DNA of 64,000 bases from assembly GCA_000002445.1 (NCBI GenBank), contig CH464491.1, forward strand, positions 4,128,001-4,192,000, given 5' to 3'. Source of the stretch: Trypanosoma brucei. Taxonomy: Eukaryota. Under the pieces are notes generated by a model. It was not told the DNA's origin, did no database searches, and saw only the letters and a program-made list of their open reading frames with translations. Shown here one piece after another: positions 6,676 through 39,155 of this stretch. The stretch's first letter is position 1, and the number at the start of each line of letters is the position of its first letter. Position numbers and translations under genes: made by a program.

Positions 6676-6699
6676 TATATATATATATATATATATATA
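6676..6699. repeat. (TA)12 microsatellite in the 3' spacer of AAT copy 1.
   Basis: Direct read: ctatatatatatatatatatatatatacg. The equivalent tract in copy 2 is (TA)14. Confidence 0.9.
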
Positions 6700-9168: not shown

Positions 9169-9250
9169 CTGCAGTTAACGTGAGTACTTAACTTTACAAT
9201 ATGCGCAGTAAGTGAGGAAAAGTAAGAAAATAAGAAAAAAAGAAAAGGAG
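9169..9250 (-). promoter_or_regulatory. Putative trans-splicing signal for AAT copy 1: a polypyrimidine tract on the coding (minus) strand followed by AG dinucleotides immediately upstream of the ATG.
   Basis: Plus strand 9211-9250 is purine-only (aaagtaagaaaataagaaaaaaagaaaaggag), which is a polyY tract on the minus strand. CTGCAG lies directly 5' of the ATG. This follows the kinetoplastid SL-addition convention. The actual splice site is not determinable from sequence alone. Confidence 0.35.
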
Positions 9251-9410
9251 TCAAACGCCCTGGCGTAACACAACAGTATATGACACAAACAATCAGGGAG
9301 GCGTAACCACAACATAAACACACAACACACAGATGCGAAAATGAGAGTAAGGACATAGAACTCAAACAGGAGCATTATCCACGCATCTTCACGCAACGCT
9401 TCCCACAACC

Positions 9411-11675: not shown

Positions 11676-13230
11676 ATTAGTAGAATTCTAAAAAAAAAAA
11701 CGTACGCCTTTCGAATCGTTAAATATTGGGCTCCTCCACGTAGGGGTGAGCCTGAGAAAACAAGCAGATGGGTCCGATAAATACTCTTACAATAGAGCTG
11801 TTACAAAGGTTTTATGTATTTTTCTCCCTTGAATGATCTTCTTCCCACCATTAAGTGATAAAAGAAAAGAAAGCAGGGGAGATGAGAGTCATAGTGAAGT
11901 TAAAGAAGTGCCATAAACCCCTATTAAAGGACGTCACTAAAAGGAACTGAATAGCAGGTACATCCTGATGCAAACAGGAAACACATCGCACTTGTTTACG
12001 ATGTGGAAGCACAAAATAATGGGGGTGAAAATGTACGGGAAACCACATCTATACACAAAGAATTTGTTCCAGGCACCTGTACGAAATATTTTCATAAACC
12101 CTGCGGCATTCCCAAAATGAAAGTAGTGCCTTAAGCCGAAAGCGGCATCCAAGGCGGCAAACCAAAACTGAAAAGGGGAAAAACAGCGCCTCAACGAAGC
12201 AACCATCTATCCCCATGGGAACAAGCCAACAAACTTTATCCAGGTGGTTCGGGGAGTTCTGTAGCTTCGCTACAAAACACAACGTCTGCCGGTGGCACCA
12301 GGCGCCCCACAATAACTTCCAGTGCCTTTTCAAGCGCAAGCAGGCCCTCGCCCTGCCCAGAAGTTGAACACCAACCTGCCACGTCCGGTAAAATGTAAGG
12401 TATAGGAGCATCATCCGAATGTTCAAAATCATTAAAGGAGGCATCACCGAGACATACAAATAGCGGGTTATCATCCTTCCTAACAACTTTATCGTCCCCC
12501 TGCAAGGGACAATTTACAGAGCCGTTGATATGCAGTGGCGTGGAGCAAAACATATCAACAGCAAATCGCCGCTAAAACTAAAACAAAATAGAACAAAAGC
12601 GCAAGAAGACGATAGGACACATATGCCAATACGTAAAATCAGTCACTCAATAAAAGAAACAGCCTAAAATATTAACCGGTATCACCGACGGCAGTAGTAA
12701 TAATTACACAACACGTATATATATATGAAGTACAAAGGGTATCAAGAGAAGCACAGCAACAGCTACATGAAAGCGGACACACACAGCATAACCACTTCAC
12801 TCTCTTCGGTCAGCAAACCAACAAAAACCATAACATGGGTAAGTCTTGGATTAGAAACCGAATTAATCCGGATACGAAAAAGGGGGTCCAAAAAGATAGA
12901 AGAGTGTGGCGATGTAGAGAAAAAGACAAAGTGAGTTGTGTGACTCACATGACAATAGGGAAAGCGGAAAACAGATCCGTATCCCCTCACCCAACTAATA
13001 CAGCAGCTTCCCACTACTCAAATTAATGAAGGCGCTGACGCAATAAGGATGTGGATCTGAATTATACCTCAGTGGGTGGATGCAGCAACAAGTTGCTATG
13101 ATGTCATGGCAAGAAAGTGCCTAACTACGGGGAGGTACACAAACAAAGTAAACACGGCAGCGCACATGGAGGCATTCCAAACAGTAATCCAAAACACAAC
13201 ATATATAGATCTTGTGGGAGGGGAATGTGC

Positions 13231-13258
13231 TATATATATATATATATATATATATATA
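13231..13258. repeat. (TA)14 microsatellite, the copy-2 counterpart of 6676-6699.
   Basis: Direct read: gctatatatatatatatatatatatatatatacg. Confidence 0.9.
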
Positions 13259-14376
13259 CGTAACCACTAATATCAAATCGAGAAGAATTAGGAAAGAGGG
13301 AAACGTGAGCAACAAATAAACCATCTGTCAGAAAACGTAACGCATCAGTGTACACAAACACACACAACTCTGGGGTAGTAATGTGCCACACTCCAGAAAA
13401 CAAGAATCAAACTGAAGCATTTGATCATCAGTTTCACCACACACGAAGGTAAGGGGATATATGAAACCAGATTCGCAGGGCTCCTCACAAGTACCACACT
13501 TCATCGCGCTGCCCAGTCAGACCACCAAACACCACGTGCGATGTGTGCAGACAAAAGGGAAGTTTGTGTTGGATGCAGGAAAAGGTATAGTGGCAAAGGG
13601 ATTTAAAGGACAAAAAGAAGGGATAAAATAGAAAACACTATACAACACGTAATGCAACGTCTCAACCATAGGGATTAAACACCTAAAGGCTTACCCACCC
13701 ACAACCCCAACCGCAGAAAATCCAATAATAATGGTGAGGAGGAGGGAAACAGCCTCTCTAAACAGCGTACCATAGAGACATTTGCGAAAAGGAAATATTA
13801 TTAAGCAAAAAAGCGTAAAAAGGGAGGCGAGGCAAGGAATCACAAAATACTAACTTAATTACTACAGGCAGATAAATAAGGGTAAAAAAAAACAACTATT
13901 GCCGCTACTCAGTATCATAGTCAACAAAAGTTTTTTCGTTGTGCCTCTATAACGCGATAACTAATATTTTTAAAAAACCATAAATTAATTCGTAGAGATT
14001 TCCTCAAACTCTTACATTGCGATAAAGAGATTATCCTTTTTTTTTTTACAGATATTCATCATTGACGTTAAAAAAGTTGTAGATATGGCTATGCAGCGTC
14101 CGCGGGGGAGAGCGGCATCCAACAAACCATATAATGCAGTTTTCTTACTTCATCCACTAATATTACCAAGTTGCATCATTGATTCATAGGCCTCCCATCA
14201 TCAGTGGCATTATGTGAGACATGCATTTTCAACCCCATATCGCTGTCGCAAATGCCTAAATTCACACAAGAAAGGGGATGAACGAGAAGAATAAAAAAAA
14301 CAAGAGGGAAAACAAAGAAGGAAAAGAAAAGAAAAGAGGGTATACTTCAATTAGGTCACGGGTTCTGACACATCCG

Positions 14377-15765
14377 CTACTTCTTAACCTCGTCGTAAAT
14401 GGTTAATGCCGTACCAAACACAACAGCGAATACGCCGACAATGAGCAACTGGTATGTGACAGCGTAGTTGAACCACCCAACCTCTTTCAGAGAGAAGTTC
14501 CCCGCATACATGTAATACAGTGCTGGTAGAATAAAAGCAAGGAAGCCACCACAGAAACTTCCAAGAAAGTTGAAGACAACTTCAATACTGGGTAGCACAA
14601 GTCCCAGTACGAGAGCGAGGGTAGCCAAGACACCACTCACTACGAGGTTCTTCCAGCTGTCAACATCAGACGTCTTCCCCCATCCCAATACATAATAAAT
14701 CGCATCACGAGATGGCTGGATGCAAATAGCGAACCCCCCACAAATCTTGATAGCGATGCCAACATACCCGATGGCCATCATCACATCATCTTGTGGTTTG
14801 TACAATTTGAGTACGGAGCCTTCTAGATCATTCCCGAAATCAAGATAACCGAAGATACCAGACAAGAAATACAGGAGACCAACCATCGACATCGCCACAC
14901 TACTGTCGCGCGTCATTCGCCGTGGGGTGGGTCCCTTCATCTCTTCATACACCTCAAAACAATTCACCTGACATATGAAGGCAAATACAAACAGTGTGAA
15001 GCCATTCAGAATCCCCCATCCATCACCGACGAGTCGAATGTCCGATCCTATCCCGTCTTTCAAGCCATTCATCGCAGCGTGTACAATCATGCATATCACA
15101 AAGAAAACAATGAAGAAAACACCCACAGCAGAAGCATATCGAAGTGAGTTAATCTCCTTGGGAAGCGAGAGTGGTAACATGGCAACCAACCAAACTACAC
15201 CAACAATAACGTTCTTTCCCATCGATGTCCTCAGGAATCCAGTTGTTGAAGGCTGATTCAAAAGTGGAGAGAGTAAGTCACCCACTGATATCACGTACCC
15301 AACGCAGGTTCCAAAGCAGAAAACAAACATCAAGAAAGCCGTAAAGTAGTCTGCACCGCGGCCAAGCAACCCACACGCCATCTCCTCATACGAACGGAAT
15401 CCAGTTTTGTCCCTAGTGATCACGAGTATGCGGATAGAGTACACTGTGGTGAAGCAGATGTACACCAACATTAACGTGGCAATTATTATGCCAGAGTTGA
15501 GGAAACCAGAAGGCAGCATCACAATTCCAGCACCAAGGGTAGCACTCTCCAGGTTAAACACATTTGACGCCATTCCACCAGACGGAACAACTCCCTTGAT
15601 GGGGTCAAATACCGTGTTCAGGCAGCCCCTGTGCTCCCCGTCAGCAGCTGCTGTAGATTTATCGCTGTCTGGAGGTAATTCCAACACATTACCCTGAGAC
15701 AAGCTTGGTATTAAGGTTGGGTGTTCGTCCTCGTTTATTATTGGCTCTGTTGCCCTGGGTGACAT
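14377..15765 (-). CDS. Amino acid transporter (AAT family), copy 2, 462 aa.
   Basis: ATG at 15763-15765. It differs from copy 1 at only three residues in the translation: KGIVPYGG vs KGVVPSGG (two substitutions) and KICVGFAICIQ vs KICGGFAICIQ (one). Confidence 0.85.
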   Translation of the reverse strand: MSPRATEPIINEDEHPTLIPSLSQGNVLELPPDSDKSTAAADGEHRGCLNTVFDPIKGVVPSGGMASNVFNLESATLGAGIVMLPSGFLNSGIIIATLMLVYICFTTVYSIRILVITRDKTGFRSYEEMACGLLGRGADYFTAFLMFVFCFGTCVGYVISVGDLLSPLLNQPSTTGFLRTSMGKNVIVGVVWLVAMLPLSLPKEINSLRYASAVGVFFIVFFVICMIVHAAMNGLKDGIGSDIRLVGDGWGILNGFTLFVFAFICQVNCFEVYEEMKGPTPRRMTRDSSVAMSMVGLLYFLSGIFGYLDFGNDLEGSVLKLYKPQDDVMMAIGYVGIAIKICGGFAICIQPSRDAIYYVLGWGKTSDVDSWKNLVVSGVLATLALVLGLVLPSIEVVFNFLGSFCGGFLAFILPALYYMYAGNFSLKEVGWFNYAVTYQLLIVGVFAVVFGTALTIYDEVKK

Positions 15766-15847
15766 CTGCAGTTAACGTGAGTACTTAACTTTACAATATG
15801 CGCAGTAAGTGAGGAAAAGTAAGAAAATAAGAAAAAAAGAAAAGGAG
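15766..15847 (-). promoter_or_regulatory. Putative trans-splicing signal for AAT copy 2, identical to the copy-1 element.
   Basis: Identical sequence to 9169-9250 within the duplicated unit. Confidence 0.35.
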
Positions 15848-16007
15848 TCAAACGCCCTGGCGTAACACAACAGTATATGACACAAACAATCAGGGAGGCG
15901 TAACCACAACATAAACACACAACACACAGATGCGAAAATGAGAGTAAGGACATAGAACTCAAACAGGAGCATTATCCACGCATCTTCACGCAACGCTTCC
16001 CACAACC

Positions 16008-16217
16008 TCAGTTATTGTCATCAAGTATATCCTTCGCAAGCCGCCACCCCCACGGGTTCTCTGCACACGGGTATGGTGGGGCGAGGAGGAGACCCTGCCG
16101 CTTCCGTTCCGCATCCTCCGCAACGTGACGAAGTGCCTGTTGTACCGCAGACACTCCCGTACCCCAAAATAGCAGTGGTTTGTTAGGTACACTCCATGCT
16201 TGACCTAGAAGTTCCGG
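16008..16217 (-). pseudogene. Truncated 3' fragment (last ~70 codons) of the 754-aa gene, left at the duplication junction.
   Basis: The 71-aa ORF 16008..16223 (..PELLGQAWSVPNKPLLFWGTGVSAVQQALRHVAEDAERKRQGLLLAPPYPCAENPWGWRLAKDILDDNN) is identical to the C-terminus of the 9411..11675 product. The upstream 2 kb of the gene is absent. Confidence 0.75.
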
Positions 16218-17054
16218 TTGCAAATTGTAGATAAAGTTTTCGTGGGTAGGGTTGCGCTAACGACTGTTATCCGTATGTTGTTTCAATGAGTATTGTTATC
16301 GCCTTGCAAATGTTCTTTTTCAAGATTTGGAGGAGAAGGAAGCTCTTCGCCTTTTTTCATCGAATCATTCTTTATAACACGAACGTTACGTTGATCCATT
16401 GCGTTTCTGTTCTTTAAATGTTTGAAATCTGAAACTTTTGTCGCATATCAATTGGAACCTATTCTTCTCGTTTGTGTGTGTGTATTTATTAAAAGCTGTC
16501 TCACTTACCTGCTTTTTCGCGTCGTGTTACCTTCCCCCACACTTTAATCACTTTTTCAAACAGCTGACTTTGATTGTTACACTTTTTCCGCAGCGTAACG
16601 CAAGGAAATGCGATAAATCTTTCCCATAACAAAATGTATTTGTTGCACAAAACGACATTTCAGTGAGATGCTACCCCGATCACATTTGTAATGCAGGTAC
16701 ATCGTGTTTTAGTTTCACTCAACCAGGGTTCCACTTGGCAATGGTCACCCGAAACCATTCTGTATATTACATAATCCGCACCGCATGAATACGAAGAGAG
16801 CATTTGTACGTGCCCAAGGGATGTTTAGTGATTTTACTATCCGTGAAAGGGGTAAAAAGGGATTGATTGAGTCCTCTTTGTTCCCTCCACCCCTTTCGGC
16901 AAATGTCAGACTTTTCCTTTCCTTTGCTCCCCCCCCCCAAGGCACACACGTGATTCGTTCAACACATTTATTGGCTAATACACATGCACCGTGCGAGGAT
17001 AGGCGTACGGGTCTAGGGTGAAGAGCACACAAATACACCCAACCATCGGATCCT

Positions 17055-18665: not shown

Positions 18666-19259
18666 AAAAAAAAATCCTAAAGAACAAAAAGTACCAGAGA
18701 GGAGCCAGTGCGAGCTTAGAAGCGAAGGCGCTGGAAGAACCAACGGTTGTTACCGGCGTTGTAGCGGGCCTGAAACAGACGTTTCACCAACTGCTTCGAC
18801 TTCGCCTTCTTCGATGCGTCGGAAACATTGATGCGACCGCGCAGTTCACGCGAGAGGTCCATGTTGTATCGGGTTGGTAGAAAGTGCTTGTGATTCACAA
18901 CGCGGAGGAACACACCAACTTGCGAGCGGCGTGTGATGGAGCGCTTGCTCATCCCGCGCACAACCTTTCTTGGGTATTTTTTAATTCCGGCGAGCAACGA
19001 ATGACCGTACGGGCGCTCCTTGTTCCTCGTATCCGTGTTCTGCACGATCACAGCCTTCTTGCCGGCATACCGGCCCGAAGTCATGATCACAACCTTGCCG
19101 GGCTTCAGAAACTTCATCACTGCCAGCACACTAATCCAGTGGGAAATGACAAGAAATAAAAGGACAGCAGATGGGAGATAGCAAGGGTAATAAAGAGTGA
19201 GTATACAAACAGGTTTCAAAGGCATTGGAACGGTGCCGGTGGAAAGACCATTCGGGAAA
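18666..19259. repeat. RPL27 repeat unit, copy 1 (~590 bp: CDS, ~145 bp upstream and ~47 bp downstream).
   Basis: Near-identical to 22579-23170, with one mismatch near the end. Confidence 0.9.
18716..19117 (-). CDS. RPL27: 60S ribosomal protein L27 (eL27), 133 aa, copy 1.
   Basis: The ORF track prefix is read-through. The ATG at 19115-19117 gives MKFLKPGKVVIMTSGRYAGKKAVIVQNTDTRNKERPYGHSLLAGIKKYPRKVVRGMSKRS..., which is the classic eL27 N-terminus (KOW motif GKVV...GRYAGKKAVIV). Confidence 0.9.
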   Translation of the reverse strand: MKFLKPGKVVIMTSGRYAGKKAVIVQNTDTRNKERPYGHSLLAGIKKYPRKVVRGMSKRSITRRSQVGVFLRVVNHKHFLPTRYNMDLSRELRGRINVSDASKKAKSKQLVKRLFQARYNAGNNRWFFQRLRF

Positions 19260-22293: not shown

Positions 22294-22578
22294 GGGGTCC
22301 GTAACTGAAAGAACGGGAGGATACAAACAAAAAAACAGGGTGAAGGGTACCCAAAACCCACACCACACACCAATACCCCCTCGCCCTTCTTCGACCTGAT
22401 ACAGACGCGGCAAGAAGGGAGAGCAAAGAAAAAAGAAAAAGACAAAGGAGGAGTTCAAACATGTTGGTATACTAACGAACCACAAAGCAGACCTGAGGTT
22501 GCAGAAAAATACACCCCAACACCGGGATACAGGAGGCATCACCAACGAAAATCCGCTTTACTGGGAAATAGAACAAGA

Positions 22579-23170
22579 AAAAAAATCCTAAAGAACAAAA
22601 AGTACCAGAGAGGAGCCAGTGCGAGCTTAGAAGCGAAGGCGCTGGAAGAACCAACGGTTGTTACCGGCGTTGTAGCGGGCCTGAAACAGACGTTTCACCA
22701 ACTGCTTCGACTTCGCCTTCTTCGATGCGTCGGAAACATTGATGCGACCGCGCAGTTCACGCGAGAGGTCCATGTTGTATCGGGTTGGTAGAAAGTGCTT
22801 GTGATTCACAACGCGGAGGAACACACCAACTTGCGAGCGGCGTGTGATGGAGCGCTTGCTCATCCCGCGCACAACCTTTCTTGGGTATTTTTTAATTCCG
22901 GCGAGCAACGAATGACCGTACGGGCGCTCCTTGTTCCTCGTATCCGTGTTCTGCACGATCACAGCCTTCTTGCCGGCATACCGGCCCGAAGTCATGATCA
23001 CAACCTTGCCGGGCTTCAGAAACTTCATCACTGCCAGCACACTAATCCAGTGGGAAATGACAAGAAATAAAAGGACAGCAGATGGGAGATAGCAAGGGTA
23101 ATAAAGAGTGAGTATACAAACAGGTTTCAAAGGCATTGGAACGGTGCCGGTGGAAAAACCATTCGGGAAA
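22579..23170. repeat. RPL27 repeat unit, copy 2.
   Basis: See copy 1. Confidence 0.9.
22627..23028 (-). CDS. RPL27: 60S ribosomal protein L27 (eL27), 133 aa, copy 2.
   Basis: ATG at 23026-23028. The protein is identical to copy 1. Confidence 0.9.
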   Translation of the reverse strand: MKFLKPGKVVIMTSGRYAGKKAVIVQNTDTRNKERPYGHSLLAGIKKYPRKVVRGMSKRSITRRSQVGVFLRVVNHKHFLPTRYNMDLSRELRGRINVSDASKKAKSKQLVKRLFQARYNAGNNRWFFQRLRF

Positions 23171-24093
23171 AAGTGGTCTAACCATGCTGAAATTGACAGG
23201 GAATTTTCAGATACATGAAAGCAGAAATCAAAGGAGAAAATGGAAATGAAATCTATAAACAATGCCAAATAACAATTATAATATAAGATGGAATCCAAAC
23301 TACAAGTGGAGTGAGTGACGGCGACCAGTGACTCGGCGGTATTATTTTCCCAAAGTGCTACAAAAGTACGAGCTAAAGCTGCAAGCAGCAATGGCGAAAT
23401 CACTGGTCAGGGAAAGGAAAAGGTGTCGGTGGTGCAATAAGAGAAGCGCTAGTAAAGCGGGAGGGGAAGGCGGCAGTGAATAAGATCGTCTTAATGTCGC
23501 AAGGAACATCATTTCCCCCGTCTTTCTCTAATCTGCCGGTGCGTTTCCCACCATAACTTCCAAATCGACGCATGCACACATTTAGTTCCTTCTCACATTG
23601 TCTCAACATGTTTCTTTATTGCCAAAATCGGTGTTGCCGCGCCCCCGACTCCCTCACTAAACTCCCGTTGGTATTCACCAGTCCTTTAATGTTTAGCCCC
23701 CTCCCACTCCACACACACACACACAAGTACCTGGTAACCGCGTAATTTTTTCCTTTTTGTTTTCCTTTTGCGTTGCTTTTGTTGTTATTCCCATTGACCT
23801 GACCAGCTTTCGTCTCCGACGAAATTTAGCGGGTGCACCCGCCACCTTACAAACTGTTCAGTAAGGGGGAAAGTGAAAAAAAAAAAGAAACCAAATATAT
23901 TCATTTTGTTCGTTTGAGCTAACCGTTTGCTTTATTACGTTTTCTCACCTTTTTATTTACCTTACCTTTTTGTCCGTTTCCCTCTCTTACCATTCTTCCT
24001 CCCTATTAGCATTCTCTCAGAATATGAACACAGTCACGGCTCTCACCTCCCTTTTCCCACATCACCTGCGCGCACCTGAACACACGCATGTTC

Positions 24094-30411: not shown

Positions 30412-32888
30412 GATTCCCTGGGACGAGTGTGAAACAAAAAGAAGCTACCTGTCAAACTGCACGAAACCGGAAGGAAACACGCCAGAGTTCAGCGCCCGGT
30501 TTTATTCTAGTTCACAGTTTACGCGCAATGAACGCCACTGCCCATTTTAAGGAGAAAACGAACCGACAAAAAAAGAAGAGGAGAGGAGAGAAAAAACGTA
30601 TACGAGTGAAGTTTATTCACCAGGTGCACACGGCAACCACGACACTGCACCACGTCATAATGAGCACCGAGAGCTCAACCATGTACATCAACAATGACAA
30701 CAGAGGAAGGATCAGTTTCTCTCTTTTAAGAAAAAAAAAAAAGAAAACAACAACGAAACGAAGAAACAAAGGCGATGTTGCCCTATGCCACCGGAGAACT
30801 GTAAGTCTCGAAGATGTCTGGTGGGTCAAAATCGTTTTGCACCTCCGCTTTACAGGTTGAATCTTATCACATCATGCACTAATCAAAAGTAAAAGAAAAA
30901 GAGTTCTCCTATTCACGGCTGAGCACTGTAAACGCTTGCTGTTAACATATATTTTCCTTCACCGTCGCGAAAATTAAAAAAAAAGGAATATGACAGAAAT
31001 AACAACTGGATAATTAAAAATGAAAAGACATCCTCTAATGCAGTTTAATCGCCAAAACTTCCGCTGCGTTTCATTTTTCCTTCCCTCCAAACTGCTTTCC
31101 GATCAGTTACGCTCCGTTCAAGCCACCTGCTTCGTCTTTTCTGTTCCACTGTGAAGCAGCGCTTTTTTACACACAGACAAACATGCACGAAAATTTGGAT
31201 GGGCAAAAGAAATTTGCAGCAAATCACAAAGATGCGAATTCTGTTACGAAAACGAGCTGAAGAGACTTCGGCCGCTGCATTTATCGACCACCGTCACTTC
31301 TTTTCTTTTCTTTTCTTTTTTTTTTGAATAATTTACCCCTTTTTCTTTTCCTTTCATTCCCTCCTCCCCGACCCCAAAACCCCTCCCTCCTCTTTACTTT
31401 TCTCCTGTTTCCTTTTCTTTCCTTTCCTTTCCTTCTTTCTTTTGATGACGCACTTCAACTCTCCCTCTCTCCCTTTTTTTTTTCGACATTTACTCCATTC
31501 ATCATTCGACACGTCACACCTTCTTACTTTCTCCTTCAAGTGGCCCAACCAAACAGACGTACTGCCCCCAATATGCACTTCTTTTTTTTTTTCTTCAACA
31601 AAAGAAAAAACAATCATTTTCCCTCTATTTTAAAGATCACTAATTATATGCTTATTACTAATTATTATTGTTATTTGTGCATCTGACCCTTAACGATCCT
31701 CACATTTATATGAATATTTATGCGAGTGTAAATATGTGCATGCGGAGTATTACCGTCACAATCATCTTCACTGGCGCCATTCCATCCCTCCGTCCATTAT
31801 ATATCCTCCAACTCTGCTGTATTCTTTTTTTTTTCCTTCTTTTTTTTCTTTTCTCCCCTTCAGCTCTCCCCGTTACTTAAACGCGTTTTGTTTATTTCAT
31901 TAATTTAATGACGCTAATATTAATAATTCTCTACCCGATGTACACTAGCCGTATTTTTCCCCCCCCTTGCATTATTACACTTTATTACTAAAATATGTCT
32001 TGCTTCATTTTCCTTTTTTTTTCTACCATTTGTGTTGTCGCAAAGACAGTTGAACACAATGAACGACGACAACATGAACAACAATAAAAAAAAAGTGCAG
32101 ACGAGTGGGCGCAGAGCCGCAGCACTCTTGCAAAAGAGTCAATAAACTCACAATGAAGGTTGGTGAGAAATAAGAGGTGTTAAGAAAAGCGTAAACTTCA
32201 CACTTTTAATCTTCCAACTCTTTTTTCTTCCCTCCAGTGAGCAAAGACACATATAAATACATATATATAAATACATATAAATATATATTCCCAGCCACTG
32301 TTAAGAACAAACAATTAAGAAAGCGCTTACCGAAACGGAAACAAACAAACAAAAAAGCAAAGCAGAAAAGAACAGAACAAAAAAAAACAAAAACAAACAT
32401 CATTATTATTTCTAACATTAGTTTTGGGTACGGTGCGTAATGAAATACGCACCACATACACACGCACATACAAAAATATGTATATAAATGTATATAAATA
32501 TGTGACCTAATACAACATTTATTATGAGAAAGTGCATGCATTCACCAACTCAAGCATTCCTTACAGTACGTCCCTCTTGCGTGGGCATAAATAAAACAAC
32601 AACATAAGTGAAAAAAACGTGAAACAAAAAAAATGTTCAGGAACAACAAAAGAAAAAAAAGAATCAGAAACCCATGGAGAGGAGCGGAGGAGGAAGAGGA
32701 AAGAAAGCTATTCGACTAATATGTAAGCGGCACATACTTCGACGCATATTTACATACACACAAGAACTCATATAAATATATTTGCACGAGTTCGCCAATC
32801 TCTATAACAGCAAAAGAAAAAAAACGAAAACCGGTAAGGGAATAGTAAGAATATAACCGCGTGATTCTTATTTTTCCCCTGCCTCAGC

Positions 32889-32936
32889 TACACACACGCG
32901 CACACATACACACACACATACATATACATACATACA
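32889..32936. repeat. CA-rich (CA/CATA)n microsatellite.
   Basis: Direct read: acacacacgcgcacacatacacacacacatacatatacatacatacac. Confidence 0.8.
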
Positions 32937-33085
32937 CGGCAAGAATTACTATGAATGCATCATGCAACTGTTTGTGGAGCGGAGTGAAGCGAAGAGAGGG
33001 GGGGAAAAAAACAAAACAAGAAAACTGACAACAACACGTGGTGGCGATGGAAAAGCAGAATAGAAAAGTGCGCACTCGAAAAAAA

Positions 33086-33130
33086 ATAATAATAATAACA
33101 ACAACAACAATAATAATAATAATAATAATA
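33086..33130. repeat. (AAT)n/(AAC)n trinucleotide repeat.
   Basis: Direct read: aataataataacaacaacaacaataataataataataataa. Confidence 0.85.
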
Positions 33131-33299
33131 AAACGAATAAAAAACGGAAACTACAGCGTCGAACAAAAACAACAACGGCGGAGCAACGGGAAGGATGTAA
33201 TCATTCTCAGGGGTCAACTCACAAAGCAGTTTCGAAAGATACGGGTAGGAAAAATTTTTTTAAAAGGAGAATGTGAAAGAAAAAGAAGAAGAAGCATAA

Positions 33300-35238
33300 G
33301 TGCCGTTGAAGGTTGGTACACAAGGAAACCCATGTCACTTATGGCGTCGTAACTGTTTGCGCACTCAGCACTGAGTTTCCGGCGCCCTCACACGAACAAC
33401 TTCCACCTTGTTGGCGATAAGCGCCAAAATGTTTTCCGACACGACGGAGACTGTACCGAAGACGAGACCCACGACGCCAGCACATAAAAGAAAGTAGGTT
33501 CCAAAAAAGTGGAAGTTGCCCACATTCCGTCGAGTCCATTTGCCAGAATACATGTAGAATAGCGATGGGAATATGAAACTGAGGAACCCGCCACAAATAG
33601 CACCCACAATACCAAACACAGTGTTAATGTTAGGAATGAAGAGGCCAGCCAGCAACACAACGAGGGAAAGGGGAATCACGAAGGAAAAGTGCTTCCAATA
33701 AGGCAGCGTCTCTAATTCCCAGCCCAGAACATGATATATTGTGTTCCGCAACGCCATTGTTTGAAGGGCGTAAGCAACACAAAGTTTGACCACCATGCCA
33801 ATGAAACCTATCATCATCATCACCTCCGTGATGGGATTGTACATGAGAAGAATTGAGTTGTCGATAGCACCACCAAACTCACCATACGCAAACAAAATAG
33901 TGAGTGCGTACAGAATACCGCAAAACGCCATGGATATGGCAGCGTACACTGTGAACCTGGCACAGCTGCGCTTCTTCATCTCCCAGTAAACTTCATAGCA
34001 ATTGATCTGGCAAACATATGCAAACATAAAAACACCAACGGACGCAATAGCAGAGTTTCCAGTGTTGAACAACTTCACGCCATCTTCTTCATCACTCGTT
34101 AACTTCGGGAGTCCGCTTTGAGCTCCATGAATCACAATTGCGAAGACGAAGTACAGGACAAAAATAATTGCGAAACCGGAAACATAGCGGAGCGAGTTAA
34201 CCCTCTTCGGTAAAACGAGTGGCAACATGAAAACCATCCATGTGAGTGCAGTCAGGAGACGAATCCCACCCGGAGTCCTCAGGAACTCGGGAGCACCGCA
34301 CGATTTCTCTATGATGGGATTCAACACATGGCCGACGCTAATCACATAGGAAACCGTCGCACCGAACGAGTTGATCCATCGAATAACAACAACAAAATAC
34401 TCAAACCTTCGCCCCATAACCCCTCTTGCGGTGTGCTCAAACGTGCGAAGACCGGTCTTCTCCATCACAAGTGACAGGATATGCAGGGAAAAAACACCCA
34501 ACCCACCAATAACCACCAAATACAACATTGCCATCACAAGCCCACTGCGGTTTGCCGCGGCAGGAAGTCCAAGGATACCGGCACCAATGCACACTGAACA
34601 AAGGTTAAAAACACTTGACACTAATCCACCATATGGAACAACAGTACCTGCAATATGCTTCATCTTTGCACTAAATGATTGCCACACGGATGGCGGTGCA
34701 TCGCCACGAGCGTCAACCCTCTTGTTCTTATCATCCGTGTGAATAGGTTCACTCGCATCAACTATTCCTGAAGGTTCCGCAGGAAAAGTCTGTTGGGTTA
34801 CGGGTGAAGTGGTGTTCTCGACATCAGTGGCACACTTGCCTTTGTCAGACATACCTTAATGTGCGCGATGGCAACGTCAATAAATGGGTAACTTATTGGA
34901 TATCGCCTGTCTTATACCAATCGTTGTACAACTCACGAAAGAAAGCACCCTTGTGTTATTATGTTACTCGCACTTCTCGTTTCGCTAGTAAGTTACTACC
35001 TTCAAGTAGATTATTAGCCTTTACTGTCGGTGTGCAGGAGTAAACAGAAGAAACAACAAAGTGAAGACAATGAAGGGAAATGATAGATCAGTACGTGCTC
35101 AAACATAGACGAGATAAGTCGGTATATTGAAGGGAGAAATAGGAAAGATAATGAAACAAGATACCTACACTTTACGTAATAGAGACATATTTGGAAAAGG
35201 GTATTTTGCTTCCCACAGTTGATAGAAAAAATATATAT
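33300..35238. repeat. AAT paralog unit A (gene, identical 386-bp upstream block and a partly similar 3' flank).
   Basis: 34853-35238 is almost identical to 37440-37825. The first 29 codons are identical to unit B. The 3' flank shares aaggttggtacaca...gactgtttg..gcactcagc. Confidence 0.85.
33365..34852 (-). CDS. Amino acid transporter (AAT family), 495 aa, paralog A.
   Basis: ATG at 34850-34852. It has about 11 TM helices and Aa_trans-like stretches (VVPYGGLVSSVFNLCSVCIGAGILGLP, FMFAYVCQINCYEVYWEMKK, IVGAICGGFLSFIFPSLFYM). It is about 85% identical to paralog B. Confidence 0.85.
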   Translation of the reverse strand: MSDKGKCATDVENTTSPVTQQTFPAEPSGIVDASEPIHTDDKNKRVDARGDAPPSVWQSFSAKMKHIAGTVVPYGGLVSSVFNLCSVCIGAGILGLPAAANRSGLVMAMLYLVVIGGLGVFSLHILSLVMEKTGLRTFEHTARGVMGRRFEYFVVVIRWINSFGATVSYVISVGHVLNPIIEKSCGAPEFLRTPGGIRLLTALTWMVFMLPLVLPKRVNSLRYVSGFAIIFVLYFVFAIVIHGAQSGLPKLTSDEEDGVKLFNTGNSAIASVGVFMFAYVCQINCYEVYWEMKKRSCARFTVYAAISMAFCGILYALTILFAYGEFGGAIDNSILLMYNPITEVMMMIGFIGMVVKLCVAYALQTMALRNTIYHVLGWELETLPYWKHFSFVIPLSLVVLLAGLFIPNINTVFGIVGAICGGFLSFIFPSLFYMYSGKWTRRNVGNFHFFGTYFLLCAGVVGLVFGTVSVVSENILALIANKVEVVRVRAPETQC

Positions 35239-35879
35239 ATTTAAAAAAATCTACCAGAAACACAAACATTGTCACTAACCGCAGTGCGAAGAGCACACAA
35301 ACTATTTGTCAAGGGTTGAATGCGCACAACAAAAACAAAAAAGGGGTTGCACGCATAGAACGTCGAAAAGAAAAATAAAATAAAAGACAAATATTCACTT
35401 TTTAAAAACGCGGAGCGCAGGCTCCTTTTTACCGGTGAAACAAAAATATCTGAATTTTGCTGTGCATCAATCCATTCAAACGTGTGGTATTGCGCCATCG
35501 GTAAAAAAAAAAAATACAAACGAAACCGGACCGATTGGTAAAGCATGGTCAAGAGGGGGCATCGTGGTGGCAACTTGCATCAATAGTACAAAATAAAAAT
35601 AAAAATAATTTGACGTTTTCGTTTTGGCTCCACTAACCTATTGGAAACGAAACACAAATACAAAGAACCTTAAAATTCAATACACTGGTAGCAGTAGGTG
35701 TAACAAGGCCAGTGGTTACGTTTTTTTCTTTCTTTTGCATATATGTATAACTTTTCGTTTGGTTGTATTAGATAATATAAAATATTTAATAAGAAAGGAA
35801 GGTTAAGGTACCTTACGGCTGCGTAATTCACTTTACGGAGTTAACACGTCTTGTTTAAGGTTAAACAGGGAAGAGAAAA

Positions 35880-37825
35880 GAAATTTTACCCAACGTCAAA
35901 GGTTGGTACACATAGAAATCGACGCCATAAGTGACGTCGCGACTGTTTGAGCACTCAGCAGACAGGCGGGGGCTTAATAACAGCAGCGCCACCACCACCG
36001 TGAATGAACGACATGATGGTGTTTGTTACAACAGTGACTGTGCCGAACACGAGACCCACTACACCAAGAATGAACAGTGCGTAGGTTCCAAAAAAGTGGA
36101 AGTTGCCCACATTCCGTCGAGTCCATTTGCCAGAATACATGTAGAATAGCGATGGGAATATAGCGCTCAGGAACCCGCCACAAATAGCACCCACAATACC
36201 AAACACAGTGTTAATGTTAGGAATGAAGAGGCCAGCCAGCAACACGGTGAGGGAAAGGGGAATCACGAAGGAAAAGTGCTTCCAATAAGGCAGCGTCTCT
36301 AATTCCCAGCCCAGAACATGATATATTGAATTGCGAATCGCCATTGTTTGAAGGGCGTAACTAATACATATCTTAACGACCACACCTATAGAGCCTATCA
36401 GCATCATGACCTCCGTGATGGGATTGTACATGAGAAGAATTGAGTTGGTCACAGTGCCGCCAAACTCACCATAGCCGAAAAAGGCAACAAAGCCGTAAAA
36501 AGTGCCGCAAAAAGCCATGGATATGGCAGCGTACAATGTGAACCTGGCACAGCTGCGCTTCTTCATCTCCCAGTAAACTTCATAAATATTGATCTGGCAA
36601 ACATATGCAAACATAAATACACCAACGGACGCAATAGCAGAGTTCCCACTGTTGAACAACTTCACGCCATCTTCTTCATCACTCGTTAACTTCGGGAGTC
36701 CGCTTTGAGCTCCATGAATCACAATTGTAAGTGCAAAATACAGGACAAAAATAATTGCGAAACCGGAAACATAGCGGAGCGAGTTAACCCTCTTCGGTAA
36801 AATGAGTGGTAACATGAAAACCATCCATGTGAGTGCAGTCAGGAGACGAATCCCACCCGGAGTCCTCAGGAACTCGGGAGCACCGCATGAGTTCTCTATG
36901 ATGGGTCTTAAAACATGACCGATAGTAATAATATAGGAGGTACTTGTACCGAACGAGTTCAGCAAACGAATTGCAATGACGAAGTATACAAATCGTCCAC
37001 CCATAACCCCTCTTGCGGTGTGCTCAAACGTGCGAAGACCGGTCTTCTCCATCACAAGTGACAGGATATGCAGGGAAAAAACTGTCATTAATGCCATGAT
37101 GATCAAATACAACATTGCCATCACAAGCCCACTGCGGTTTGCCGCGGCAGGAAGTCCAAGAAAACCGGCACCAATGCACACTGAACAAAGATTAAAAACA
37201 CTTGACGCTAATCCACCATATGGAACAACAGTACCTGCAATGTGCTTCATCTTTGCACTAAATGATTGCCACACGGATGGCGGTGCATCGCCACGAGCGT
37301 CAACCCTCTTGTTCTTATCATCCGCATAAACAGGTTCACTGACTTTGCTTACTCCTGAAGGTTCCGCAGGAAAAGTCTGTTGGGTTACGGGTGAAGTGGT
37401 GTTCTCGACATCAGTGGCACACTTGCCTTTGTCAGACATACCTTAATGTGCGCGATGGCAACGTCAATAAATGGGTAACTTATTGGATATCGCCTGTCTT
37501 ATACCAATCGTTGTACAACTCACGAAAGAAAGCACCCTTGTGTTATTATGTTACTCGCACTTCTCGTTTCGCTAGTAAGTTACTACCTTCAAGTAGATTA
37601 TTAGCCTTTACTGTCGGTGTGCAGGAGTAAACGGAAGAAACAACAAAGTGAAGACAATGAAGGGAAATGATAGATCAGTACGTGCTCAAACATAGACGAG
37701 ATAAGTCGGTATATTGAAGGGAGAAATAGGAAAGATAATGAAACAAGATACCTACACTTTACGTAATAGAGACATATTTGGAAAAGGGTATTTTGCTTCC
37801 CACAGTTGATAGAAAAAATATATAT
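35880..37825. repeat. AAT paralog unit B.
   Basis: See unit A. Confidence 0.85.
35955..37439 (-). CDS. Amino acid transporter (AAT family), 494 aa, paralog B.
   Basis: ATG at 37437-37439. Its N-terminus is identical to paralog A for 29 aa. The extreme C-terminal tail differs (..NTIMSFIHGGGGAAVIKPPPVC vs ..ENILALIANKVEVVRVRAPETQC). Confidence 0.85.
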   Translation of the reverse strand: MSDKGKCATDVENTTSPVTQQTFPAEPSGVSKVSEPVYADDKNKRVDARGDAPPSVWQSFSAKMKHIAGTVVPYGGLASSVFNLCSVCIGAGFLGLPAAANRSGLVMAMLYLIIMALMTVFSLHILSLVMEKTGLRTFEHTARGVMGGRFVYFVIAIRLLNSFGTSTSYIITIGHVLRPIIENSCGAPEFLRTPGGIRLLTALTWMVFMLPLILPKRVNSLRYVSGFAIIFVLYFALTIVIHGAQSGLPKLTSDEEDGVKLFNSGNSAIASVGVFMFAYVCQINIYEVYWEMKKRSCARFTLYAAISMAFCGTFYGFVAFFGYGEFGGTVTNSILLMYNPITEVMMLIGSIGVVVKICISYALQTMAIRNSIYHVLGWELETLPYWKHFSFVIPLSLTVLLAGLFIPNINTVFGIVGAICGGFLSAIFPSLFYMYSGKWTRRNVGNFHFFGTYALFILGVVGLVFGTVTVVTNTIMSFIHGGGGAAVIKPPPVC

Positions 37826-39155
37826 GCGTTGTAAGAACGATATCAATGATCAGAAACTTTGTAAATTTATAACGAAAATCCTATTTTCCCGAAGAAAAAA
37901 GAATTCCCCCCTTTTTACTATGGAGCGCCCTTCTTTCACAGACGGACTTACCACCTCCATGGAGCACAAGCTGGGCTTATGGCTGAAGGACCAGGCGGGT
38001 GAGCAGACAAACAAACTCCGCGGTTGAAGGGTACGACGGACCCATCACTGAAGTCAAACACGCACCGTAGTGGAAAATAAAATAACGACGCCTTTGTTGT
38101 ACTCACTCCACCGTTTTGCTGTTGAGGGTTTCGAATGTATTGGAAACCTCCATTGGTATGGGTAAAGTTAACCAACACGCCAGAGGGCTGTGCATTCATG
38201 CATCCGCCGAAGCATTAAATCACGTCTTCCTTGCAGTCCCACCCAAACAATACTGGTGGTTCTTTTTTCCCCCGAATGCTTCAACTTGGGAAACGGTGCG
38301 ACTACGACCCGGGTAGTTGATTAAAAGCATTTCTTCCTTACCATCTTTCCTGGCGCTGAAAGGGACGGTGATGGGCTTTTAACATGGCCACTCATGCCAA
38401 ACCACACGCTGCCTTTGCTATCCCACCTTCTATCACGCACTTCATCAACGTTACGGGTAGCTAATATGTGAAATGTGAAGAAGGAGATCAGCAGCGGTCC
38501 TTTAAAAAAACGGGTAAAACACAGTCACAGCATAAGATGAAAATAATAATATCAATAACAATGATAATAACAATGGCGCTGACCTTCACAGAGGATGCCA
38601 ATACGCATAGCAGCCGTGTGCAAGCAAGGGTGGAAAGGGAATGGAAGGGAAAAAAAACCGTACAAAAAGGTTTCAGAAGGCAAAGGAGTCGAGCGGCGAA
38701 CGGTTGCGTTAACAACGTGCAGCGGGCGCCGATGCACAAATGTGGATTGGGAAGTCAAACAGAAAAAAACACAAAAACGCTTCCGTCGCGGTGACGTTCG
38801 AACACTGCTGTCTGCTCCTCCCTTCCACATATTTGTAGCATTCTTTCGGATTGCTCCTCTTGCATATTCTTCGTCGTGCACAGCTTTTCTTAACAATTTA
38901 GCCTCCACACATAGTAGTGCACAGCGGTGTTTCCCTCAATACTAATAACAGATGTTGCAACGAGAGTTTTAAGAAAAACAAGGCGCCACAACAGACAGGG
39001 AACAGTGCAAGAATACCTTATCATATCTTGCCGCATGAACACTCAAACACTTATGTCGACAAGCAACTGAAGGTTGAGGGTGATACCCCAAGTTGATTGT
39101 GCCTCTCCGGTAACCACAAAGCTAACCTACACAAATATCTGCCATTTATCAACCA

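What the first reader, a model, noticed from the sequence alone, without database searches (positions are those of the whole stretch)
33300..37825. Second AAT pair is a mosaic: the 5' end and 386-bp upstream block are identical, the body is ~85% identical, and the C-terminal tails are unrelated
Paralogs A (33365-34852) and B (35955-37439) share an almost identical upstream block (34853-35238 vs 37440-37825, one mismatch) and identical first 29 codons. Downstream they alternate between identical patches and clustered substitutions, for example LYLVVIGGLGVFS vs LYLIIMALMTVFS and CGILYALTILFAYGEFGGAIDNS vs CGTFYGFVAFFGYGEFGGTVTNS, in predicted TM helices. The last ~25 aa are completely different (B ends in a Gly-rich GGGGAAVIKPPPVC tail). 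This pattern suggests partial gene conversion homogenising the 5' end and its splice-signal region, while the transmembrane core and cytosolic tail diverge. That is what one would expect for neofunctionalising transporters of different substrate or sorting. This AAT family also differs from the 462-aa pair at 7780/14377, so the PTU carries two independent AAT expansions.
Basis: partly seen in the sequence, partly recalled or inferred. Interest (0 to 1): 0.6.

Follow-up and report, generated by a model that had tools for sequence, protein, structure and literature searches.

The report
Trypanosome transporter twins patched by conversion
Two neighbouring amino-acid-transporter genes of Trypanosoma brucei keep copying stretches of sequence onto each other, which leaves a patchwork of near-identical stretches and old divergent islands; this is a clear but ordinary example of a process already described for this parasite's tandem genes.

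Summary
The window is T. b. brucei TREU927 chromosome 11. Copy A (33365-34852) is Tb927.11.15950 (AAT17.1) and copy B (35955-37439) is Tb927.11.15960 (AAT17.2).

The two units share a 473-nt 5' tract (386-nt upstream block plus 29 codons) with one mismatch. Their bodies are mosaic, and their C-terminal tails are very different.

Silent differences cluster with amino-acid differences. Island dS is about 1.2-1.5, against about 0.1 elsewhere. The mosaic therefore reflects segments of different age, not recent point-mutation selection.

A three-subspecies comparison shows ongoing exchange in both directions. There are sites where the strains differ but A equals B within each strain. There are also short tracts swapped between the copies.

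B is the derived copy. Its islands lie in TM2, TM3, TM7, TM8 and TM11.

The tails are not unrelated. Homology resumes in register at the stop codon.

T. cruzi, T. grayi and T. theileri have one gene at this position.

The 3'UTRs are unalignable after about 65 nt. This fits published B-specific starvation induction.

No donor paralog for B's islands was found.

The locus, its rate asymmetry and gene conversion in T. brucei AAT arrays were published in 2007. This pair was not reported as converted there. Verdict: a new example of a known process, of low to moderate interest.

The parts
35955..37439 (-). Copy B CDS, 494 aa = Tb927.11.15960 / AAT17.2 / XP_829653; the derived copy
   Evidence: ORF. 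Pfam Aa_trans. Published Tb927.11.15960 qRT-PCR primers match only here. Exact match to the TREU927 protein. Outgroup polarisation.
33365..34852 (-). Copy A CDS, 495 aa = Tb927.11.15950 / AAT17.1 / XP_829652; keeps the ancestral states at most differing sites
   Evidence: T. congolense agrees with A at 36 of 47 informative differing sites and with B at 2.
37353..37825 (-). B copy of the fully homogenised 5' tract: 386-nt upstream block (37440-37825) plus codons 1-29
   Evidence: 1 mismatch in 473 nt against the A copy. Within-strain A-B differences are 0-3, between-strain differences 1-8.
34766..35238 (-). A copy of the fully homogenised 5' tract: 386-nt upstream block (34853-35238) plus codons 1-29
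   Evidence: There is a sharp 5' homology edge at 35238/37825, next to an (AT)n run.
35019..35160 (-). Pyrimidine-rich tracts followed by the first AG dinucleotides (G at 35024 and 35019). Inferred trans-splice acceptor region, giving a 5'UTR of about 170 nt with no upstream ATG. The identical element in B is at 37606-37747.
   Evidence: Read from the sequence. Not verified with spliced-leader RNA data.
34736..34765 (-). N-terminal island, codons 30-39 (B: 37323-37352). Lies in the disordered cytosolic N-terminus and is being swapped between copies among subspecies.
   Evidence: T. equiperdum B carries the A type here. T. equiperdum A carries the B type at codons 37-39. pLDDT is below 50.
34496..34516 (-). 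TM2 island, codons 113-119 (B: 37083-37103)
   Evidence: 7 of 7 residues differ. Helix assignment from the AF2 model.
34304..34411 (-). TM3 island, codons 148-183 (B: 36891-36998). Largest island, 14 replacements plus many silent changes.
   Evidence: B replaces W159 and S172, which are invariant in all 10 outgroups.
33860..33916 (-). TM7 / EL4 island, codons 313-331 (B: 36447-36503)
   Evidence: The published B-specific forward primer lies here.
33740..33814 (-). TM8 island, codons 347-371 (B: 36327-36401)
   Evidence: The published B-specific reverse primer lies here.
33368..33493 (-). TM11 and C-terminal tail island, codons 454-495 (B: 35958-36080). Most divergent segment, but collinear, with one 3-nt indel.
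33300..33367 (-). Stop codon plus about 65 nt of conserved proximal 3'UTR (B: 35890-35957). This is the last recognisable homology of the duplicated unit.
   Evidence: 79% over 63 nt, in register. Four-sequence alignment.
35239..35889 (-). B-specific 3'UTR and intergenic DNA. No similarity to the sequence downstream of A.
   Evidence: BLAST of the flanks. Sliding-window identity at random level.
30412..33299 (-). A-specific downstream region, about 2.9 kb to the next gene. Contains (AAT)n, (CA)n and AT-rich microsatellites and is unrelated to B's.

Best explanation
**What it is (shown)**
- This is the tandem AAT17 pair of T. brucei: Tb927.11.15960 upstream and Tb927.11.15950 downstream, in one polycistronic unit.

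**History and age (inferred)**
- The pair comes from an old tandem duplication of a unit of at least 1.95 kb.
- The unit contained the splice-signal/5'UTR block, the CDS and the start of the 3'UTR.
- The duplication happened after the split from the T. cruzi/T. grayi/T. theileri lineages. It possibly predates the T. brucei/T. congolense split.

**Ongoing exchange (shown)**
- Since then the copies have repeatedly exchanged sequence by non-reciprocal homologous recombination (interlocus gene conversion).
- Exchange goes in both directions and is still going on within T. brucei subspecies.

**Resulting mosaic: three divergence classes (shown), read as age classes**
- A 473-nt 5' tract, re-homogenised separately in each subspecies.
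- A background of about 80% of the CDS, at about 3% nt divergence (dS about 0.1).
- Short islands in TM2, TM3, TM7, TM8, TM11 and the tail, carrying old divergence (dS about 1.2-1.5, dN/dS about 0.3).

**Why the islands persist (inferred)**
- T. brucei recombination needs long matched substrates, is impeded by mismatches, and resolves heteroduplex by short-patch repair.
- Conversion tracts are therefore expected to stop at, or be repaired around, diverged islands, which makes the mosaic self-reinforcing.
- Selection for B-specific residues may add to this.

**Regulatory consequence (inferred)**
- Both genes keep the same RNA-processing signal, 5'UTR and phosphorylated N-terminus.
- They have unrelated 3'UTRs and different membrane-core residues.
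- That would allow separate post-transcriptional control and possibly different transport properties.
For: **Mosaic of ages**
- In the islands (97 codons) pS is 0.645 and pN 0.34.
- In the other 380 codons pS is 0.097 and pN 0.016.
- Silent changes are over-dispersed (4/20,000 permutations reach the observed value).
- Silent changes lie 2.07 codons from the nearest replacement, against 6.52 expected (0/5000).

**Ongoing conversion**
- At six sites inside the unit, the strains differ but A equals B in each strain. The A coordinates are 35033, 34927, 34838, 34833, 34241 and 33722.
- Residues 7 and 45 change in both copies together.
- Gambiense A has B's A426. Gambiense B has A's V113. Equiperdum A has B's VYA at 37-39. 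Equiperdum B has A's codons 30-39.
- In the 5' tract, A and B differ by 0-3 sites within a strain and by 1-8 between strains.

**Whole-unit duplication**
- Homology resumes in register at the stop codon and the proximal 3'UTR.

**Polarity**
- Outgroup majority equals A at 46 sites and B at 11 sites.
- T. congolense equals A at 36 sites and B at 2.

**Age bracket**
- There is a single gene at the syntenic position in T. cruzi, T. grayi and T. theileri.
- Island pS between A and B is 0.59, against 0.74-0.84 between A and those outgroups.
- A and T. congolense share derived states at 322, 454 and 474, where B keeps the ancestral residue.

**Recombination rules**
- Barnes & McCulloch 2007 (PMC1904282).

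**Regulation**
- Tb927.11.15960 mRNA rises several-fold on amino-acid, glucose or proline starvation (PMC8094907).

**Precedent**
- Partial conversion in T. brucei AAT4, AAT7 and AAT9 arrays (PMC1810246).
Against: - **Dating:** no T. congolense or T. vivax DNA could be fetched. The duplication date and the 'old islands' reading rest on saturating silent-site estimates and three amino-acid synapomorphies.
- **Island definition:** islands were defined from amino-acid clusters. This inflates island dN, though not the independent silent-site signal.
- **Sampling:** only three genomes were compared, and one (T. equiperdum) has indels that may be assembly errors.
- **Barrier versus selection:** the two explanations for island persistence were not separated.
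- **RNA evidence:** the splice site and UTR limits are inferred from sequence only.
- **Copy A expression:** A's response to starvation was not found in the text available, so differential regulation is documented only for B.
- **Earlier test:** Jackson 2007 tested AAT alignments with GENECONV and reported no further confirmed events beyond AAT4, AAT7 and AAT9. I suspect, but did not check, that a two-copy array gives that triplet-based test little power.
Confidence: 0.8

Rival explanations
1. Recent duplication followed by positive selection on point mutations in B's transmembrane helices, with no gene conversion. The identical 5' end simply has not had time to diverge, or is constrained.
For: - B carries many unique replacements at positions invariant in all outgroups, for example I93F, W159L, S172T, C285I, T318V, F426A and L456F.
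- The replacements concentrate in TM3, TM7 and TM8.
- B has its own expression response.
Against: - Silent divergence is more than 10-fold higher inside the islands than outside. Selection on amino acids does not produce that.
- Island dN/dS is about 0.3, not above 1.
- Concerted sites and swapped tracts between subspecies show that exchange has occurred.
Confidence: 0.05
2. B's islands were imported by ectopic gene conversion from another, more distant AAT paralog elsewhere in the genome. The mosaic is then A-like sequence with foreign inserts.
For: - Island silent divergence is high, as a foreign donor would give.
- A few local resemblances exist. MALMT in TM2 occurs in P0090. RLLN..FG in TM3 resembles T. 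grayi PAT1 and the T. vivax homolog.
Against: - Among 86 kinetoplastid homologs, the best non-B sequence matches B at only 16 of 61 sites. None has a B-majority in any island.
- The AAT4 array and AAT16 are about 50% nt-identical to both A and B in the islands, while A and B are 65% identical to each other.
- At least six separate imports into one gene would be needed.
- Jackson 2007 never observed ectopic conversion between AAT loci.
- Caveat: AAT2, AAT7, AAT10 and some other T. brucei loci were not examined at DNA level. The patch-only database search failed its own positive control.
Confidence: 0.07
3. Same conversion history, but the islands persist because selection removes convertants that erase B-specific or A-specific residues. 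This would be true sub- or neofunctionalisation of substrate or regulation, as opposed to a passive mismatch barrier.
For: - TM islands are fixed in all three subspecies, whereas the island in the disordered N-terminus is being swapped.
- Islands lie in TM3 and TM8. From general knowledge of LeuT-fold transporters, these helices contribute to the substrate site. Fold confirmed.
- dN/dS of about 0.3 shows that both versions are constrained.
- B alone is reported as starvation-induced.
- B appears disrupted in T. equiperdum, which has no insect stage.
Against: - TM1 and TM6, the core substrate helices, are almost unchanged.
- TM2, TM7 and TM11 islands are not obviously at the substrate site.
- Single 'protected' residues do get converted: gambiense A has A426 and gambiense B has V113.
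- No substrate was found for AAT17.2 in yeast.
- A passive barrier explains the pattern equally well.
Confidence: 0.35
4. The identical 5' block is an assembly artefact, from collapse or mis-joining of near-identical repeats.
For: None beyond the general risk in repeats.
Against: - The same two-copy structure, with the same block edges, occurs in three separate assembly records (TREU927, DAL972, T. equiperdum).
- Strain-specific substitutions are present in both copies.
Confidence: 0.01

Closest known systems
Partial gene conversion in T. brucei AAT tandem arrays AAT4, AAT7 and AAT9 (Jackson 2007, BMC Evol Biol 7:26; PMC1810246)
   Same: - Same gene family, same genome and same mechanism.
- Short tracts (19-327 bp) are exchanged between neighbouring tandem duplicates.
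- Divergence and homogenisation coexist.
   Different: - AAT17 was listed there only as a two-copy locus with a rate asymmetry. No conversion event was reported for it.
- Here most of the gene is homogenised and only islands survive.
- The evidence comes from silent-site clustering and cross-subspecies site patterns, not from GENECONV triplets.
T. brucei tandem arrays with invariant non-coding regions but divergent CDS (Tb24, Tb62a), or with a divergent C-terminus and unrelated UTRs (Tb105a, Tb109c) (Jackson 2007, BMC Evol Biol 7:54; PMC1855330)
   Same: - The 5' non-coding block is identical while the CDS differs.
- One copy has a distinctive C-terminus and an unalignable 3' flank.
- Breaks in the repeat structure limit concerted evolution.
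   Different: - AAT17 combines both patterns in a two-gene array.
- It was not found in that paper's text or in its supplementary files held here.
Phosphoglycerate kinase (PGKA/B/C) and hexose transporter (THT1/THT2) tandem genes of T. brucei (recalled from general knowledge, not tested here)
   Same: Tandem paralogs in one polycistron that share sequence through conversion, yet differ in C-terminus and/or 3'UTR. This gives different localisation or stage-specific expression.
   Different: - For those genes the functional difference is established experimentally.
- For AAT17.1 and AAT17.2 neither substrate nor localisation is established.
AAAP-family LeuT-fold transporters with solved structures (AUX1/LAX3, SLC38A9)
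   Same: - Predicted fold of 11 TM helices with broken TM1 and TM6.
- Foldseek probability 1.0, TM-score 0.6-0.8.
- Pfam Aa_trans.
   Different: - Only 14-17% sequence identity.
- The substrate of AAT17 is unknown.

Membership tests
AAAP / Pfam PF01490 Aa_trans transporters | Significant match to the family profile over the whole membrane domain | tested here: met
   A scores 157.8 bits and B 165.7 bits, against a cut-off of 25.6. The matches cover profile positions 5-408 of 410.
AAAP / Pfam PF01490 Aa_trans transporters | LeuT-type fold with 11 TM helices and discontinuous TM1 and TM6 | tested here: met
   AF2 model pTM 0.77, with TM1a/1b and TM6a/6b breaks. The best PDB matches are LAX3, AUX1 and SLC38A9.
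AAAP / Pfam PF01490 Aa_trans transporters | Demonstrated amino-acid transport | not testable with these tools
   The literature reports that AAT17.2 supported growth on no substrate tested in yeast (PMC8094907).
T. brucei AAT17 locus (Jackson 2007 nomenclature) | Identity with the annotated TREU927 genes Tb11.01.7590/7600 = Tb927.11.15950/15960 | tested here: met
   - Exact protein matches to XP_829652 and XP_829653.
- The published 15960 primers match copy B only.
- The 494-aa length matches the paper's supplement.
T. brucei AAT17 locus (Jackson 2007 nomenclature) | Conserved genomic position, with a single-copy homolog in T. cruzi | tested here: met
   The order Sec7-GEF ... AAT17 ... ~950-aa gene ... 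sybindin is conserved. There is one AAT17 in T. cruzi, T. grayi and T. theileri.
Tandem duplicates under concerted evolution by gene conversion | Heterogeneous silent-site divergence along the alignment, beyond chance | tested here: met
   Island dS is 1.2-1.5 and background dS about 0.1. Permutation tests.
Tandem duplicates under concerted evolution by gene conversion | Paralogs within a genome are more alike than orthologs between genomes in the converted tract | tested here: met
   In the 5' tract, A and B differ at 0-3 sites within a strain, against 1-8 between strains. Six fully concerted sites.
Tandem duplicates under concerted evolution by gene conversion | Identifiable tracts where one copy carries the other copy's variant in some lineages only | tested here: met
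   Gambiense A 33575-33578 (F426A), gambiense B V113, equiperdum A codons 37-39, equiperdum B codons 30-39.
Tandem duplicates under concerted evolution by gene conversion | Formal breakpoint test (GENECONV/RDP) with several taxa, including close outgroups | not tested
   These programs are not available here, and T. congolense DNA could not be fetched.

The most novel reading that the evidence does not exclude
AAT17.2 (copy B) may be a neofunctionalised transporter, or a non-transporting sensor, specific to the insect stage and induced by proline starvation.
- Its specificity-determining islands in TM3, TM7 and TM8 would be actively protected by selection from erasure by its neighbour.
- Its unrelated 3'UTR would carry the starvation-response element.
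- It would be dispensable, and decaying, in T. equiperdum, which never passes through a fly.
Probability: 0.2. Interest if true: 0.45.

Novelty: new member of a known kind. Interest (0 to 1): 0.25.

Why it matters
- **Evolutionary example.** This is a compact, well-resolved case of how tandem genes in a promoter-less polycistronic genome can keep identical RNA-processing signals and 5'UTRs while holding different protein cores and 3'UTRs.
- **Practical reagent design.** Only the islands and the 3'UTRs distinguish the two genes. This matters for primers, RNAi fragments, peptide assignment in proteomics and short-read mapping.
- **Which copy is derived.** The uncharacterised, starvation-induced AAT17.2 is the derived copy, and the analysis shows which helices to swap in functional tests.
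- **Limits.** It does not change current understanding of trypanosome genome evolution.

Tried and rejected
1. **Patch-only database search.** I searched the large protein database with a query made only of B's divergent patches, to find a donor or a B-like ortholog. It returned nothing, not even copy B itself. It failed its positive control and is uninformative.
2. **T. congolense DNA.** I tried to fetch the locus through the exact-protein look-up. It is not on record, so the duplication could not be dated against the closest outgroup.
3. **Donor hypothesis.** I tested 86 kinetoplastid homologs, the chromosome-4 AAT4 array and AAT16 at DNA level, and looked through the sequences of 23 top hits of the exhaustive HMMER search by eye. 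No donor emerged. AAT2, AAT7 and AAT10 DNA was not examined.
4. **Partial duplication with a novel read-through tail.** Rejected, because homology resumes in register after the tail.
5. **Pure positive selection.** Rejected on silent-site clustering.
6. **Assembly artefact.** Rejected on three assemblies.
7. **Rhodanese remnant.** I looked for a remnant of the rhodanese gene that lies upstream of AAT17 in other trypanosomes. There is none in the window.
8. **Supplement search.** I searched the supplements of Jackson's tandem-array paper for this array and found nothing.

Full report
**Identity of the locus**

- Every ORF of 250 aa or more except one overlapping ORF lies on the minus strand. 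This fits a single polycistronic unit.
- The two ORFs named in the finding exist exactly as stated. They are 33365-34852, 495 aa, called A here, and 35955-37439, 494 aa, called B here. Both are full-length Pfam Aa_trans proteins.
- Exact-sequence look-up shows that the window is Trypanosoma brucei brucei TREU927 chromosome 11. A is XP_829652 (Q381J1) and B is XP_829653 (Q381J0).
- The qRT-PCR primers published for Tb927.11.15960 (AAT17.2) match only copy B, at 36484-36506 and 36381-36402. So B is Tb927.11.15960 (AAT17.2) and A is Tb927.11.15950 (AAT17.1).
- Jackson (2007, PMC1810246) defined this locus as AAT17 (Tb11.01.7590, two copies). T. cruzi has one copy and L. major none.
- The 462-aa pair at 7780 and 14377 is AAT16 (Tb11.01.7500, now Tb927.11.15840/15860). 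A is 38% identical to that pair, and the pair is 99.4% identical internally.

**Checking the observation**

- Self-BLAST finds one repeat, 33449-35238 against 36036-37825, at 91.8% identity.
- The upstream 386 nt plus the first 87 coding nt (473 nt) differ at one position, 35046/37633.
- The first amino-acid difference is at codon 30 and the first silent difference at codon 66.
- The rest of the shared body has 149 differences in 1317 nt. The proteins are 83.7% identical.
- Differences are strongly clumped. The longest identical run is 280 nt, against a maximum of 155 in 20,000 permutations.
- The same two-copy structure, with the same edges, is present in T. b. gambiense DAL972 (L001) and T. 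b. equiperdum (L002). It is not an assembly artefact.

**The tails are not unrelated**

- BLAST of the 3' flanks shows that homology resumes in register: 33309-33370 against 35899-35960, 79% over 63 nt, offset 2590 against 2587 for the main repeat.
- A four-sequence alignment shows a conserved TGCTGA stop region and about 65 nt of proximal 3'UTR. The stretch TGTGTACCAACCTT is identical. The tail contains one 3-nt indel.
- Both tails end in Cys and differ in length by one residue. The tail DNA aligns better than shuffled controls.
- The tail is therefore the most diverged island of a unit that was duplicated whole, at least 1.95 kb. It is not a foreign or read-through sequence.
- Beyond that point the downstream regions are unalignable. 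These are about 650 nt of B-specific DNA up to A's block, and about 2.9 kb downstream of A.

**What kind of mosaic this is**

- I defined islands from clusters of amino-acid differences only.
- The 97 island codons have pS 0.645 (dS about 1.5) and pN 0.34. The other 380 codons have pS 0.097 (dS about 0.10) and pN 0.016.
- A second calculation, with a slightly different island set, gives dS 1.18 against 0.09.
- Among the 409 codons that encode the same amino acid in both copies, silent changes are over-dispersed (4 of 20,000 permutations).
- Silent changes lie on average 2.07 codons from the nearest replacement, against 6.52 expected (0 of 5000).
- Selection on amino acids cannot raise silent divergence more than ten-fold in short patches. 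The segments must differ in age, which is the signature of gene conversion.
- Island dN/dS is about 0.3, so both versions are under purifying selection.

**Direct evidence that conversion is ongoing**

I aligned A and B from the three subspecies.
- 217 positions are fixed differences between the copies.
- At six positions inside the homologous unit the strains differ while A equals B within every strain. The A coordinates are 35033, 34927, 34838, 34833, 34241 and 33722.
- At protein level, residue 7 is Cys in both TREU927 copies and Ser in the other genomes. Residue 45 is Gly in both gambiense copies.
- Short tracts have also moved between copies in single lineages.
  - Gambiense A carries B's CGCT at 33575-33578. 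This gives A426 at a position where every outgroup has Phe.
  - Gambiense B carries A's V113.
  - Equiperdum A carries B's VYA at residues 37-39.
  - Equiperdum B carries A's version of codons 30-39.
- In the 473-nt 5' tract, A and B differ at 1, 3 and 0 sites within the three genomes. The same copy differs at 1-8 sites between genomes.
- The 5' tract has therefore been re-homogenised since the subspecies separated, and exchange runs in both directions.

**Polarity and age**

- Ten other trypanosome orthologs were used as outgroups. At the 63 informative differing sites the outgroup majority agrees with A at 46 and with B at 11.
- The T. congolense ortholog agrees with A at 36 of 47 sites and with B at 2.
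- B replaces residues that are invariant in all outgroups: I93F, W159L, S172T, V213I, V236A, T264S, C285I, T318V, L357I, V398T, F426A and L456F. B is the derived copy.
- Jackson 2007 reported that 'AAT17.1Tb' changed more than 'AAT17.2Tb'.
  - With the numbering of Haindrich et al. (AAT17.2 = Tb927.11.15960 = B), my result is the reverse.
  - Jackson's numbering may follow transcription order, in which B comes first. I could not resolve this.
  - The asymmetry itself is published.
- T. cruzi, T. grayi and T. theileri each have a single AAT17 at the syntenic position, in the order Sec7-GEF, rhodanese, AAT17, a ~950-aa gene, sybindin.
- Island pS between A and B (0.59) is below the saturated values between A and those species (0.74-0.84). 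The duplication therefore arose in the African-trypanosome lineage.
- At residues 322, 454 and 474, A and T. congolense share a derived state while B keeps the ancestral one. This hints that the duplication predates the T. brucei/T. congolense split.
- I could not obtain T. congolense DNA to test this.

**Was there a foreign donor for B's islands?**

- Among 86 kinetoplastid homologs, the best non-B sequence matches B at 16 of 61 differing sites. None has a B-majority in any island.
- At DNA level, the four genes of the chromosome-4 AAT4 array (L003) and AAT16 are about 50% identical to both A and B in the islands. A and B are 65% identical to each other there.
- I read through the sequences of 23 top hits from the exhaustive HMMER search by eye. 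They showed only short local resemblances.
- A database search with a patch-only query failed to find even B itself, so it is uninformative.
- AAT2, AAT7 and AAT10 were not examined at DNA level. An ectopic donor is unlikely but not excluded.

**Anatomy and likely working**

*The shared 386-nt block*
- It begins abruptly next to an (AT)n run.
- It contains pyrimidine-rich tracts between about 35160 and 35028, for example TCTTTCCTATTTCTCCCTTC at 35148-35129.
- The next AG dinucleotides have their G at 35024 and 35019. An ATG-free leader of about 170 nt follows, up to the start codon.
- From general knowledge of trypanosome mRNA processing, this is what a trans-splice acceptor region plus 5'UTR looks like. 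Polyadenylation of the upstream mRNA is coupled to such a signal. This part is inferred, not verified with RNA data.

*The protein*
- An AlphaFold model of B (pTM 0.77) gives 11 TM helices with broken TM1 and TM6.
- Its best structural matches are LAX3, AUX1 and SLC38A9.
- The A/B differences fall in TM3 (13), TM7 (10), TM11 (10), TM8 (8) and TM2 (7). TM1a, TM1b, TM4, TM6, TM9 and TM10 carry at most one each.
- Enrichment in TM segments as a class is only marginal (p=0.03).

*Why a patchwork forms*
- Barnes & McCulloch 2007 (PMC1904282) showed three things about T. brucei homologous recombination. It depends strictly on substrate length, it is impeded by mismatches, and it can resolve mismatches by short-patch repair.
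- This gives a simple mechanism for a self-reinforcing patchwork.
  - Long identical stretches, above all the 5' tract, keep being homogenised.
  - Diverged islands block tracts or are repaired around.
- Selection for copy-specific residues may act as well. I could not separate the two explanations.

**Functional context from the literature**

- Tb927.11.15960 (B) mRNA is among the most strongly induced transcripts when procyclic cells are starved of amino acids, glucose or proline alone. It supported growth on no substrate tested in yeast (PMC8094907).
- The Tb927.11.15950 protein (A) was detected in bloodstream forms (bioRxiv 10.1101/2020.06.15.152785).
- Phosphosites are reported in the shared N-terminus (PMC13524880).
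- From general knowledge, trypanosome mRNA levels are controlled mainly through 3'UTRs. The unrelated 3'UTRs are therefore the likely basis of B-specific induction. That is an inference.

**Novelty**

- The locus, its two copies and a rate asymmetry between them were published in 2007. So was partial gene conversion in T. brucei AAT arrays (AAT4, AAT7, AAT9).
- The general patterns 'identical non-coding region, divergent CDS' and 'distinct C-terminus plus unrelated UTRs' were also published then (PMC1810246, PMC1855330).
- Conversion was not reported for AAT17 there. The array does not appear in the text of the tandem-array survey, or in its supplements held here.
- New here:
  - the island map;
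  - the silent-site evidence;
  - the cross-subspecies concerted sites;
  - the polarity (B derived);
  - the collinearity of the tails.
- This is a new, well-documented member of a known kind, of low to moderate interest.

Noticed in passing
L002:5422-6905 (T. b. equiperdum copy B; corresponds to window 37326, 37307 and 36724): Copy B has three 1-bp deletions within the CDS, no gene is called there, and no intact T. equiperdum B protein is in the database. Copy A and all neighbouring genes are intact. This is either real pseudogenisation, which would be notable because T. equiperdum has no insect stage and B is induced in starved procyclic forms, or long-read consensus error in a repeat.
   Followed up: partly
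window 37826-39155, compared with L004:4596-4979, L005:33-419 and L006:4786-5232: T. cruzi, T. grayi and T. theileri have a small rhodanese-domain gene between the Sec7-GEF gene and AAT17. T. brucei has no trace of it anywhere in the window (tblastn). The extra AAT17 copy B lies between the Sec7-GEF gene and copy A, where the other species have the rhodanese gene.
   Followed up: partly
window 6116-9626 vs 12671-16224: The AAT16 pair (462 aa, lysine-transporter locus) is duplicated with long flanks at 99.3-99.6% identity (7473-9626 vs 14070-16224; 6116-7236 vs 12671-13795), although an unrelated 754-aa gene lies between the copies. About 240 nt between the two homologous blocks is not shared. 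This is near-complete homogenisation, in contrast to the AAT17 mosaic.
   Followed up: no
window 18667-19259 vs 22578-23170: A 593-bp direct repeat at 99.8% identity. One copy lies downstream of the 1038-aa ORF and the other overlaps the 258-aa ORF at 22627-23403. Its nature was not examined.
   Followed up: no
window 32251-32288, 32889-32937 and 33085-33131: Microsatellites in the region downstream of copy A: an AT-rich 10-14-nt repeat, (CA)n, and (AAT)15. They are absent from the region downstream of B.
   Followed up: no
literature vs window (copies A and B): Jackson 2007 states that AAT17.1Tb evolved faster than AAT17.2Tb. With the gene numbering used by later authors (AAT17.2 = Tb927.11.15960 = B), the outgroup polarisation here shows the opposite. 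This is probably a numbering difference (chromosome order versus transcription order).
   Followed up: partly
P0090 vs copy B residues 115-119 (window 37083-37097): An unidentified kinetoplastid AAT of another subfamily (P0090) has the same MALMT motif as B's TM2 island at the aligned position. Its T. brucei relative (P0066) matches only 3 of the 7 sites. This is probably convergence in a hydrophobic helix.
   Followed up: partly
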